Shown: positions 46,952 to 47,405, counted from the first letter of the stretch. The stretch: DNA of 58,536 nucleotides from a virus (IMGVR_UViG_3300001199_000003:1-58536); one strand, 5' to 3'. Notes: generated by a model not told the origin, from the sequence alone. Translations and numbers: made by a program.

Positions 46952-47405
46952 ATAAGCCCGCAGCTTGACAGCGGCACTTTGGGTCTCGCGGTGAGAGCGG
47001 TGAAAGTCCGTAGGGACACATTTTATTAATTACGAACATGCCATTGCGAGTATAGATCTTGACCGGTCCAACTCAGAGTTTGGCAAAAGCCCAGGATAAT
47101 CGGTTCTAGTCAAACACATTCCTGGGCCTATATTTAGAATTCATCTCGCCGGAAACGTAGGTGCAATTCCTATCCGAAAGGTCGTCTAGCAGCCCAGGAC
47201 ACCGGCATACAGCGGAAACATAGGTTCGAGTCCTGTCGGCGGCACCCGCACAAGCGGCCCCGCTGTCGTCTAGTTGGGTTAGGACACCGCTCCTTTTATT
47301 TAATACGAGCAAACCTGCGGTGGCCCTGGCAGGGAATCGAAATGACTCCATCGTGTCCAGACCACTCTACGATTAAGAGCCTGGAAGTTAGTGGACGAGG
47401 GGCCT
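46952..47405 (+). ncRNA. large structured RNA containing two tandem circularly permuted tRNA-like domains (47148-47206, 47211-47291)
   Basis: Each domain runs anticodon-stem 3' strand, AAAC, T-arm, closed acceptor, TC-GTC D-arm, anticodon-stem 5' strand; third T-loop at 46997-47011; long-range CCGCAG/CTGCGG. Confidence 0.8.

What the first reader, a model, noticed from the sequence alone, without database searches (positions are those of the whole stretch)
46952..47405. ~450-nt RNA built from two tandem circularly permuted tRNA domains
Seen in sequence: domain 1 is GCCGG-AAAC-GTAGG[TGCAATT]CCTAT-CC[GAAA]GG-TC-GTC[TAGCAGCCCAG]GAC-A-CCGGC (47148-47206). Domain 2 is AGCGG-AAAC-ATAGG[TTCGAGT]CCTGT-CGGCGG[hairpin CCGC-ACAA-GCGG]CCGCTG-TC-GTC[TAGTTGGGTTAG]GAC-A-CCGCT (47211-47291). 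In both, the T-arm comes before the D-arm, the acceptor stem is capped by a loop, and the perfect 5-bp anticodon stems differ in sequence yet both pair, which is internal covariation. The D-arm and variable-loop residues resemble tRNA-Glu. A 4-nt ATAC linker joins the domains. A third T-loop hairpin (GCGG-TGAAAGT-CCGT), an 8-bp GCCCAGGA/TCCTGGGC helix and a long-range CCGCAG(46958)/CTGCGG(47315) pairing suggest one folded RNA with its own sigma70 promoter. Established: bacterial YrlA Y RNAs carry one such permuted tRNA-mimic domain and bind Ro60/Rsr. No Ro60 gene is in this window, and I know of no tandem arrangement inside a larger RNA. Inference: an uncleavable, unchargeable double 'tRNA elbow' decoy or scaffold, for example against tRNA-targeting defence nucleases or tRNA-sensing systems.
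Basis: partly seen in the sequence, partly recalled or inferred. Interest (0 to 1): 0.92.

Follow-up and report, generated by a model that had tools for sequence, protein, structure and literature searches.

The report
Tandem inside-out tRNA mimics in phage
A large uncultured phage carries two adjacent RNA modules shaped like glutamate tRNAs opened at the anticodon and sealed at the acceptor end; they resemble bacterial YrlA "Y RNAs", but the Ro60 protein gene that normally accompanies such RNAs is absent, and their function is unknown.

Summary
Window 47148-47206 and 47211-47291 are two circularly permuted tRNA-Glu-like modules: closing stem, 4-nt variable loop, T arm, loop-capped acceptor, U8-C9, D arm. 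A 4-nt linker joins them.

- **Fold.** Each module alone folds to this shape at minimum free energy.
- **Homologues.** A homologue beside the same pth2 gene (L004) shows compensatory changes. Across 24 units from 17 phage contigs, 94.9% of cells pair, against 35-47% in slid controls.
- **Tertiary pairs.** Two tRNA tertiary pairs also covary: 18:55 and 15:48.
- **Databases.** Rfam, including YrlA, and ARAGORN find nothing here.
- **Ro60.** The complete 170.6-kb genome has no TROVE/Ro60 gene. In a close syntenic relative (L003), the same slot holds Ro60, three Y-like RNAs and one Glu-like unit.
- **Recurrence.** Tandem pairs recur in at least six other phage contigs. One of these is a complete 305-kb phage without Ro60.

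The claims of a single folded 450-nt RNA and of the long-range pairing are not supported. The region reads as a string of modules behind one promoter.

Best reading: a YrlA-type tRNA-body mimic that needs no phage Ro60 and binds an unidentified tRNA-recognising factor. This function is inferred.

This scan has noted similar double tRNA mimics on other DNA, linked there to DUF7873. I found no DUF7873 gene in this genome.

The parts
46916..46945 (+). Sigma-70-like promoter (TTTGCA, 18 nt, TATATT). It would start transcription near 46952.
   Evidence: Consensus scan, 9 of 12 matches. The same -35/-10 arrangement aligns with L004 upstream of its homologous RNA. No transcript data.
46958..46974 (+). 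Small 5' hairpin: CCGC, 9-nt loop, GCGG.
   Evidence: Read from the sequence. L004 has a different, larger 5' module here, containing a canonical T-arm hairpin.
46975..47022 (+). Block 1: a 48-nt element, the most conserved part of the locus. It contains the T-loop-like hairpin GCGG/TGAAAGT/CCGT (46997-47011). Its role is unknown.
   Evidence: 53 of 56 positions are identical to L004, against 72% identity for the tRNA-like part. An exact 19-mer from it occurs in no other IMG/VR contig.
47039..47127 (+). Block 3: a two-hairpin module. The second hairpin (47089-47127, GCCCAGGA/TCCTGGGC) looks like a terminator but has a poor U tract here (CTATATTT).
   Evidence: The window and L004 2902-2985 predict the same two-hairpin fold with different stem sequences. 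In L004 the block lies at the 3' end, is followed by CTTTTTT and sits just before pth2. The scan calls no terminator here.
47107..47134 (+). Weak internal promoter-like site (TAGTCA, 16 nt, TATATT), just upstream of domain 1.
   Evidence: Consensus scan, 9 of 12 matches. The number of such sites in the region equals the shuffle expectation, so this is only a possibility.
47148..47206 (+). Domain 1, a permuted tRNA-Glu-like module. Parts in order: closing stem GCCGG/CCGGC, variable loop AAAC, T arm with variant loop TGCAATT, 2-bp acceptor capped by GAAA, TC, D arm GTC/GAC whose loop lacks GG, then A26.
   Evidence: The minimum-free-energy fold equals the proposed fold. CM R1 scores 73.6 bits. 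Compensatory changes in L004. G55 with A18 follows the rule seen in other units.
47207..47210 (+). 4-nt linker ATAC between the two closing stems.
   Evidence: L004 has a 4-nt linker AACA. Other tandems have linkers of 1-6 nt.
47211..47291 (+). Domain 2, a permuted tRNA-Glu-like module. Parts in order: closing stem AGCGG/CCGCT, AAAC, T arm with canonical loop TTCGAGT, 6-bp acceptor stem extended by an inner hairpin, TC, D arm with a GG-containing loop, then A26.
   Evidence: The minimum-free-energy fold equals the proposed fold. CM R1 scores 74.2 bits. In L004, AGCGG/CCGCT becomes AGAGG/CCTCT and ATAGG/CCTGT becomes ATTGG/CCAGT.
47292..47405 (+). 3' tail running to the pth2 ribosome-binding site. 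It starts with an AU-rich linker (CTTTTAT) and holds one short motif shared with L004 (CCTGGCAGGG, 47325-47334). No terminator.
   Evidence: Pairwise comparison. Folding is no better than shuffles (z = +0.93). No terminator-like site on the + strand.
47422..47760 (+). pth2, peptidyl-tRNA hydrolase. It is the downstream neighbour, probably co-transcribed, and not part of the RNA.
   Evidence: Pfam PTH2, E = 2.4e-39. The RNA lies directly upstream of pth2 in the window, L003 and L004 only. It does not in 80 more distant pth2 loci.

Best explanation
**What is shown.** Positions 47148-47291 encode two independently folding, L-shaped tRNA-body mimics derived from tRNA-Glu. Each is circularly permuted: a 5-bp stem stands where the anticodon stem would be, and there is no anticodon loop. 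The order is variable loop, T arm, acceptor stem sealed by a loop (so no CCA end), U8-C9, D arm. This is the design of the tRNA-like domain of bacterial and phage YrlA Y RNAs.

**Setting.** The pair belongs to a promoter-driven string of RNA modules between a DUF5661-domain gene and pth2. In a close relative this same slot holds a Ro60 gene with its Y-like RNAs.

**What is inferred.** The RNA cannot be charged or decoded. It presents two tRNA elbows and D-arm cores, one with the canonical G18-G19/U55-C56 elbow and one with an A18-G19/G55-C56 variant. It most likely acts by binding one or more proteins that recognise the tRNA body, as a decoy, sponge or scaffold. In this phage it would do so without a phage-encoded Ro60. 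The partner is unknown.

**Candidate partners.** The units in this window, L004 and L003 were found by synteny, not by pattern, and all keep the tRNA-Glu D stem, U13-G22 and the 4-nt variable loop. A tRNA-Glu-specific factor, such as GluRS or a tRNA-Glu-directed nuclease or toxin, is therefore a candidate. The locus context (pth2, NAD-salvage pair) fits a role in conflicts over the translation apparatus.
For: **Fold**
- The minimum-free-energy structure of each domain equals the proposed fold.
- L004 shows compensatory changes: 9 of 19 pairs changed on both sides and 98.6% paired.
- In 24 units from 17 contigs, 94.9% of cells pair against 35-47% when slid. 15 of 19 pairs have double changes, and 0 of 500 shuffles reach the observed values.

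**Tertiary pairs**
- All 11 TGCAA-loop units lack GG in the D loop, and all 15 TTCRA units have it (Fisher p = 1.3e-7, ignoring relatedness).
- The Levitt pair is G15:C48 in 19 units and A15:U48 in 6.

**Permuted rather than linear reading**
- Closing stems pair 4-5 of 5 in six of seven tandems (3 and 4 of 5 in the seventh, L118). The linear alternative pairs 0-4 of 5.
- The 18:55 rule is satisfied only by the permuted reading.
- The Rfam tRNA model gives only 17.7 bits across D1 to T2, against a gathering score of 29.

**Not coding**
- L004 has no conserved open frame across the units.

**Context**
- L003 flanking proteins are 70% and 76% identical to the window's.
- The L003 slot holds a TROVE gene (E = 4.9e-23), three Y-like RNAs (one matching Rfam YrlA at 42 bits) and one Glu-like unit at 36 bits.
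- L108 has a Glu-like unit directly upstream of a TROVE gene.

**Independence from Ro60**
- The own genome, complete by CheckV, has no TROVE.
- Four other complete or 90%-complete phage records with such units also have none.
- In L126 and L136 the tandem pair stands alone after a tRNA.

**tRNA-Glu D stem as an identity region**
- PMC2777447 states that major E. coli tRNA-Glu determinants lie in the augmented D stem.
Against: - There is no transcript, binding or phenotype evidence of any kind.
- The tandem's joint minimum-free-energy fold (-48.3 kcal/mol) is not the proposed one (-40.5 kcal/mol).
- Most extra units were fished with patterns that fix TCGTCTAR. The apparent invariance of the D arm across the family is therefore partly ascertainment.
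- The A2 alignment was fitted to the model, and many sequences are related, so the shuffle counts are not probabilities.
- No protein partner recurs next to the units.
- A host Ro60 cannot be excluded, because the host is unknown.
Confidence: 0.6

Rival explanations
1. It is a classical Y RNA that works with a host-encoded Ro60/Rsr. The phage supplies only the RNA, which gates or retargets the host Ro60 ring, for example towards or away from an exonuclease.
For: - The syntenic relative L003 has Ro60 plus Y-like RNAs and a homologous Glu-like unit in the same slot.
- L108 and the contig of L318 pair Glu-like units with TROVE genes.
- The topology is identical to the Rfam YrlA structure line.
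Against: - There is no terminal-stem handle of the kind seen in the Ro60-linked units (GTTACTTC ... TTTTCTC in L003 and L318) anywhere in this genome.
- There is no GNCGAA(N)G motif. The Ro60-linked L003 and L108 RNAs lack that motif too, so this is a weak test.
- There is no YrlA model hit at E <= 10.
- Several complete phages with such units lack TROVE.
Confidence: 0.2
2. It is a cis-acting leader of the pth2 mRNA. A tRNA-shaped operator is bound by Pth2 or another tRNA-binding protein to set pth2 expression, as the thrS operator mimics tRNA-Thr.
For: - No terminator lies between the modules and pth2 in the window, and the RNA ends 17 nt before the start codon.
- The RNA is directly upstream of pth2 in the three closest relatives.
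Against: - In L004 and L003 a terminator-like hairpin with a U tract separates the RNA from pth2.
- 80 more distant pth2 loci have no such unit upstream.
- The same tandem occurs next to unrelated genes or in tRNA arrays.
Confidence: 0.1
3. One reading: the whole 46952-47405 stretch is one compact folded RNA in which the two tRNA domains, the T-loop hairpin and the 8-bp helix are held together by a 5'-3' closing helix.
For: - One conserved promoter precedes the whole region, and no strong terminator lies inside it in the window.
- Block 1 is 95% conserved and travels with the tandem in L004.
- L004 has a possible 9-bp long-range pairing of its own, CTCCCGAAC with GTTCGGGAG.
Against: - Whole-region folding equals shuffled sequence (z = -0.09).
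- The window's 6-bp pairing is at chance level and has a local competitor.
- Block 3 sits 5' of the tandem in the window but at the 3' end in L004.
- AU-rich linkers separate the blocks.
- The tandem occurs alone in L126 and L136.
- Only two sequences are available for the non-tRNA parts.
Confidence: 0.12
4. These are decaying remnants of tandem tRNA-Glu genes with no function.
For: - The sequences clearly derive from tRNA-Glu.
- The phage carries tRNA genes elsewhere.
Against: - Compensatory and tertiary covariation show selection on the permuted fold.
- Acceptor stems are neatly capped, by GAAA or stable hairpins.
- The same design recurs in unrelated phages.
Confidence: 0.03

Closest known systems
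YrlA (Y RNA-like A; Rfam RF02553; Chen et al. 2014, PMC4201824; structure preprint 10.1101/312249)
   Same: - The module topology is identical: closing 'anticodon' stem, variable region, T arm, loop-capped acceptor stem, two nucleotides, D arm.
- It has the tRNA elbow and a covarying 15:48 Levitt pair.
- It has no CCA end and no anticodon.
- It occurs in phages.
- In relatives (L003, L108) Glu-like units sit beside TROVE/Ro60 genes.
   Different: - The YrlA model gives no hit even at E <= 10.
- The D arm is of tRNA-Glu type (3-bp stem plus U13-G22), not the GUAGCUCA...GGUAGAGC type of YrlA.
- Two modules sit in tandem.
- One module has a G55/A18 variant elbow.
- There is no Ro60 gene in the complete genome, no recognisable Ro60-binding terminal stem and no GNCGAA(N)G motif.
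Bacterial tRNA-Glu
   Same: The D arm (UC-GUC-UAG...AG-GAC-A), the 4-nt variable loop AAAC and the T arm of domain 2 are close to real tRNA-Glu genes seen in other loci.
   Different: - The order is permuted.
- There is no anticodon loop, and the acceptor end is sealed.
- ARAGORN finds nothing, and the Rfam tRNA model reaches only 17.7 bits across the junction.
Circularly permuted tRNA genes (Cyanidioschyzon merolae type) and two-piece tmRNA genes (from my own knowledge)
   Same: The 3' half (T arm) is encoded before the 5' half (D arm).
   Different: Those genes are processed into functional molecules with an anticodon or tag and a free CCA end. Here the break lies where the anticodon loop should be, the loop is absent and the acceptor is closed by a loop. 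ARAGORN reports no tmRNA.
Double tRNA-mimic RNA beside DUF7873
   Same: Two tandem permuted, capped tRNA-like modules lie in a 330-465-nt noncoding stretch of phages that lack Ro60. The stretch is absent from Rfam.
   Different: - I found no DUF7873 gene among the window's neighbours or among 53 ORFs of 170-330 aa from the whole genome.
- There is no shared short-word similarity with those windows.
- Whether it is the same family is undecided.

Membership tests
YrlA / bacterial and phage Y RNA (Rfam RF02553) | Scores at or above the family's gathering score (69 bits) with the Rfam covariance model | tested here: not met
   No YrlA match in window 46800-47500 even at E <= 10, and none at gathering over the whole window. 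As a comparison, L003 1018-1080 scores 42.1 bits, E = 2e-7.
YrlA / bacterial and phage Y RNA (Rfam RF02553) | tRNA-like domain in permuted order: stem, variable region, T arm, capped acceptor stem, D arm, stem | tested here: met
   The minimum-free-energy fold of each domain matches. Covariation appears in 4 and in 24 units. The bracket pattern equals the YrlA model's structure line.
YrlA / bacterial and phage Y RNA (Rfam RF02553) | tRNA tertiary contacts conserved (D-loop/T-loop elbow; 15:48 Levitt pair with compensatory changes) | tested here: met
   18:55 covaries (11 G55 units without GG, 15 U55 units with GG). 15:48 is G:C in 19 units and A:U in 6. This is inferred from sequence, not from a structure.
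YrlA / bacterial and phage Y RNA (Rfam RF02553) | Encoded within about 4 kb of a Ro60/TROVE gene, on the same strand (criterion of Chen et al. 2014) | tested here: not met
   No TROVE match in the complete 170.6-kb genome at E <= 1. The criterion is met in the syntenic relative L003 and in L108.
YrlA / bacterial and phage Y RNA (Rfam RF02553) | Terminal stem formed by the 5' and 3' ends, carrying the Ro60-binding motif (GNCGAA N0-1 G near the 5' end) | tested here: not met
   The motif is absent from 46946-47421. The only 5'-3' pairing is 6 bp, at chance level. The Ro60-linked L003 and L108 RNAs also lack this motif, so the test discriminates weakly in these phages.
YrlA / bacterial and phage Y RNA (Rfam RF02553) | Bound by Ro60/Rsr | not testable with these tools
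   Needs immunoprecipitation or a gel shift. The host is unknown.
tRNA (RF00005) | Linear cloverleaf with a 7-nt anticodon loop and a free acceptor end | tested here: not met
   ARAGORN finds no gene here. The Rfam tRNA model gives 17.7 bits against a gathering score of 29, and only by bridging the D arm of domain 1 to the T arm of domain 2.
Permuted or split tRNA genes; two-piece tmRNA | Halves that can be joined or processed into a molecule with an anticodon (or tag reading frame) and a CCA-accepting end | tested here: not met
   The acceptor stems are closed by GAAA or by a hairpin, and no anticodon-loop nucleotides are present. ARAGORN reports no tmRNA.
Large structured RNAs of phages in Rfam (GOLLD, ROOL and the like) | Match to the family covariance model | tested here: not met
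   No hit at gathering score or at E <= 10.
Double tRNA-mimic RNA with DUF7873 (this scan's own, unverified class) | Adjacent DUF7873 protein gene | tested here: not met
   The Pfam scans of neighbours and of 53 genome ORFs of 170-330 aa list no DUF7873. Three low-ranking families of the last scan were not shown.

The most novel reading that the evidence does not exclude
Phages carry a class of Ro60-independent noncoding RNAs made of one, two or more tRNA-Glu-body mimics, permuted or linear, that always lack the anticodon. Some have an alternative A18-G55 elbow that tRNA-modifying enzymes such as TruB could not act on. These RNAs would titrate or redirect a host factor that reads the tRNA-Glu core, such as GluRS or a tRNA-directed defence toxin or nuclease, as a counter-defence or takeover device. 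The tandem form would engage two sites or two different partners at once.
Probability: 0.22. Interest if true: 0.85.

Novelty: new variant of a known kind. Interest (0 to 1): 0.64.

Why it matters
The purpose of the tRNA-like domain of YrlA Y RNAs has been an open question since 2014. This phage keeps the tRNA-mimic modules, in duplicate, while a close relative has Ro60 and its Y-like RNAs in the same slot. Several complete phages carry such modules with no Ro60 gene at all.

This suggests that the tRNA-shaped module has a job of its own. It also provides a natural comparison, with and without Ro60 and with canonical and variant elbows, for finding the partner.

The paired change A18/G55 in place of G18/U55 is a simple, testable prediction about tRNA elbow architecture. 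The neighbourhood (pth2, NAD-salvage genes) places the RNA among genes thought to answer attacks on translation and metabolism.

Tried and rejected
- **Rfam.** At gathering score and at E <= 10, nothing but a sub-threshold tRNA match and noise.
- **Nucleotide search.** blastn of the region against 50,697 phage records gave no match.
- **Exact 19-mer of block 1 in IMG/VR.** Only the L004 contig.
- **pth2 relatives in metagenomes.** 80 loci, all at or below 58% identity, with no Glu-like unit upstream. The pth2 link is therefore local to the closest relatives.
- **Junction pattern in GTDB genomes.** It returned mostly a different thing, linear anticodon-less tRNA-Glu look-alikes, plus assembly artefacts.
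- **Tandem-tRNA false positives of the model.** L099, L060, L076, L044, L134 and window 27760-27831 were recognised with ARAGORN and discarded.
- **Expression.** No RNA holder is listed among public runs. Only a groundwater DNA run, which may be the source of this DNA, holds the stretch.
- **DUF7873 lead from earlier notes.** Not found. The family name was not accepted by the genome search, and no paper mentions it.
- **Ro60-like reading of the 716-aa protein beside the tRNA array.** Rejected: it is a tail sheath.
- **RtcB.** Absent from the genome.
- **2H-phosphoesterase reading of the upstream protein.** No Pfam support.
- **Literature.** Burroughs and Aravind 2016 and the 2020 Annual Review on Ro60 could not be fetched. 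Their content is therefore not used as evidence.
- **Whole-region and tail folds.** No better than shuffles.

Full report
**What is in the sequence.**

- Domain 1 (47148-47206) reads: GCCGG, AAAC, T arm GTAGG-TGCAATT-CCTAT, CC-GAAA-GG, TC, D arm GTC-loop-GAC, A, CCGGC.
- Domain 2 (47211-47291) has the same order. Its T loop is the canonical TTCGAGT, and its acceptor stem is 6 bp and carries an inner hairpin.
- ATAC joins the two domains.
- ARAGORN calls no tRNA or tmRNA here.
- Rfam 15 gives nothing at gathering score. At E <= 10 it gives only a 17.7-bit tRNA match, which bridges the D arm of domain 1 to the T arm of domain 2.
- The YrlA, GOLLD and ROOL models do not match.

**Is the fold real?**
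- Folded alone, each domain adopts the proposed permuted cloverleaf as its minimum-free-energy structure, at -14.6 and -27.5 kcal/mol.
- The closest homologue, L004, was found through its pth2 gene (64% identical protein). It has the same two domains 4 nt apart.
- L004 carries textbook compensatory changes. AGCGG/CCGCT becomes AGAGG/CCTCT, and ATAGG/CCTGT becomes ATTGG/CCAGT. GCCGG/CCGGC becomes GUCGG/CCGGC, a one-sided change that keeps the pair as G-U. The CC-GAAA-GG cap becomes a 5-bp stem with a CTTG loop.
- On these four units, 98.6% of cells pair and 9 of 19 pairs change on both sides. Controls with slid partners reach 38-53%.
- A covariance model of the single unit (R1) then found further units in phage contigs fetched by pattern scans.
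- True tandem tRNA genes were discarded with ARAGORN. This left 24 units from 17 contigs. These pair in 94.9% of cells against 35-47% when slid, and 15 of 19 pairs have double changes.
- No reading frame is conserved across the units in L004.

**Tertiary covariation.**
Two long-range tRNA contacts covary.
- Units with T loop TGCAA (G at position 55) never have the D-loop GG; they have AG there. This holds in 11 of 11 units, one of which lacks a D arm.
- Units with TTCRA always have GG (15 of 15; Fisher p = 1.3e-7, not corrected for relatedness).
- The Levitt pair is G15:C48 in 19 units and A15:U48 in 6.
- The window's domain 1 is of the G55/A18 kind and domain 2 is canonical.
- The 18:55 rule also decides between the two readings of the tandem. 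Only the permuted reading pairs each T loop with a matching D loop.
- The closing stems pair 4-5 of 5 in six of seven tandems (3 and 4 of 5 in the seventh, L118). The linear alternative pairs 0-4 of 5.

**Is it one 450-nt RNA?**
This part is not supported.
- The whole region folds no better than shuffled sequence (z = -0.09).
- The proposed CCGCAG/CTGCGG closing helix is 6 bp, about what chance gives. Its 5' strand can instead pair locally with GCGG at 46971-46974.
- Comparison with L004 shows blocks separated by AU-rich linkers:
  - a variable 5' hairpin;
  - a 48-nt block 1 (46975-47022), 95% identical and the best-conserved part, which includes the T-loop-like hairpin;
  - the tandem;
  - a poorly conserved tail.
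- In L004, block 3 lies at the 3' end, is followed by CTTTTTT and acts as a likely terminator just before pth2. In the window it lies 5' of the tandem and has a poor U tract.
- In L126 and L136 a tandem pair stands alone, 6 nt after a tRNA and about 23 nt before the next gene's start.
- A promoter-like site at 46916-46945 is conserved with L004. No terminator is predicted before pth2. In this phage the tandem is therefore probably transcribed together with pth2, unless it is processed.

**Context.**
- The window belongs to an IMG/VR record of 170,618 bases rated complete.
- It is a myovirus-like phage: it has a tail sheath and its NAMPT is closest to those of Bacillus phages.
- Downstream of pth2 lie a PRPP-synthetase-like gene and NAMPT.
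- The genome has no TROVE domain, no RtcB and no tRNA-Glu gene.
- L003 is a close syntenic relative. Its flanking proteins are 70% and 76% identical to the window's.
- Between the same two flanking genes L003 carries:
  - three Y-like RNAs, the first matching Rfam YrlA at 42 bits;
  - a 514-aa TROVE plus vWA protein;
  - a single Glu-like permuted unit (R1 36 bits);
  - a terminator.
- L108 has a Glu-like unit directly upstream of a TROVE gene, and the contig of L318 also has TROVE.
- Four other complete or 90%-complete phage records with such units have no TROVE.
- No other neighbour recurs. 80 more distant pth2 loci lack the unit.

**Breadth of the family, and a caveat.**
- Tandem permuted pairs occur in the window, L004, L126, L136, L111, L089 and L118. 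L124 has three units.
- Related layouts exist. In L096, L135 and L131 two elbows are enclosed by one long outer stem. Linear tRNA-Glu look-alikes with a tetraloop in place of the anticodon loop occur in Streptomyces, Nocardia and planctomycete assemblies.
- Most of these were fished with patterns that fix TCGTCTAR. The constancy of the D arm across the set is therefore partly built in.
- The units found by synteny alone (window, L004, L003) do share that D arm.
- Other permuted units with different D arms also exist (L052, L111 unit 1, and the L003 YrlA-like RNA).

**Mechanism.**
- *Shown:* two independently folding, uncharged, anticodon-less tRNA-shaped modules that are under selection for the L shape.
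- *Inferred:* they act by being bound, as a decoy, sponge or scaffold for proteins that read the tRNA elbow or core.
- The tRNA-Glu D stem, U13-G22 and the 4-nt variable loop are kept. The D stem region carries major GluRS identity determinants in E. coli (PMC2777447). A tRNA-Glu-specific reader is therefore a candidate, but nothing here tests it.
- The rivals are: a classical Y RNA using a host Ro60; a cis-regulatory leader of pth2; one large folded RNA; decayed tRNA genes. They are weighed in their own sections.

**Comparison and novelty.**
- In design this is a YrlA-type tRNA mimic (Chen et al. 2014, PMC4201824; Wang et al. 2018, 10.1101/312249).
- It fails the membership tests that could be run. 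It does not match the YrlA model, has no Ro60 gene nearby or in the genome, and has no recognisable Ro60-binding stem or motif.
- In the papers I could search, I found no description of tandem tRNA-like modules in one transcript, of Ro60-less phage versions, or of the G55/A18 elbow.
- Two likely relevant reviews could not be read.
- This scan has noted similar double tRNA mimics on other DNA and linked them to a DUF7873 gene. I found no such gene here and no sequence similarity to those windows. Whether it is the same family is open.
- I class it as a new variant of a known kind.

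Noticed in passing
L003:889-1319 and 1319-2863: Three Y-like RNA genes share a handle (GAAGTGA ... GGTTACTTC ... TTTTCTC) and lie upstream of a 514-aa TROVE+vWA gene. The first has a canonical YrlA-type tRNA-like domain but scores only 42 bits against Rfam YrlA (gathering score 69). The same handle words flank the Glu-like unit in L318, whose contig also has TROVE.
   Followed up: partly
L143, L157, L158, L164, L167 (Streptomyces, Nocardia); L140, L151, L165 (planctomycete MAGs): These are linear tRNA-Glu look-alikes with a normal acceptor stem. The anticodon stem is capped by a tetraloop (for example CCUCU-CGCA-AGGAG) instead of a 7-nt anticodon loop. They sit in tRNA arrays or alone.
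   Followed up: no
L096:4200-4400(-), L135:7580-7720, L131:3960-4100(-): These are 'dumbbell' RNAs. One long outer stem encloses D arm, T arm, short cap, D arm, T arm. An outer tRNA-like unit and an inner permuted unit would meet end to end through their anticodon-type stems.
   Followed up: partly
L052/L055/L057:2404-2474: A permuted tRNA-like unit with a 7-bp acceptor stem capped by CUUG and a D arm that is not Glu-like. It lies between tRNA-Gly and tRNA-Val in a 313-kb phage contig.
   Followed up: no
L252, L260, L271, L281, L286 and others: Apparently genuine phage tRNAs carry the T loop GGTGCAAGTCC together with D loops of the CAGCAGCAG type, without GG. The G55/A18 elbow variant may therefore also occur in working tRNAs.
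   Followed up: no
G000:C1:164404-164862(-), outside the window: A 181-aa ORF matches HAD_SAK_2, the HAD domain of 'Swiss Army Knife' RNA repair proteins (E = 7.7e-31). The phage therefore has at least one RNA-repair-type gene.
   Followed up: partly
L004:3352-3475: The Rfam tRNA model matches end to end over 124 nt (46 bits) just after pth2. This implies a tRNA with a roughly 50-nt insertion. ARAGORN does not call it.
   Followed up: no
window 45020-46858: The C-terminal half of the upstream 612-aa protein is 70% identical to a separate 286-aa gene in L003. Both keep two H-x-S/T motifs (LHCSHF, PHISVT). Pfam finds only DUF5661, so the 2H-phosphoesterase idea of another note is unconfirmed.
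   Followed up: partly
L003:950-975: The promoter region of the first Y-like RNA contains TGTGATATA.
   Followed up: no
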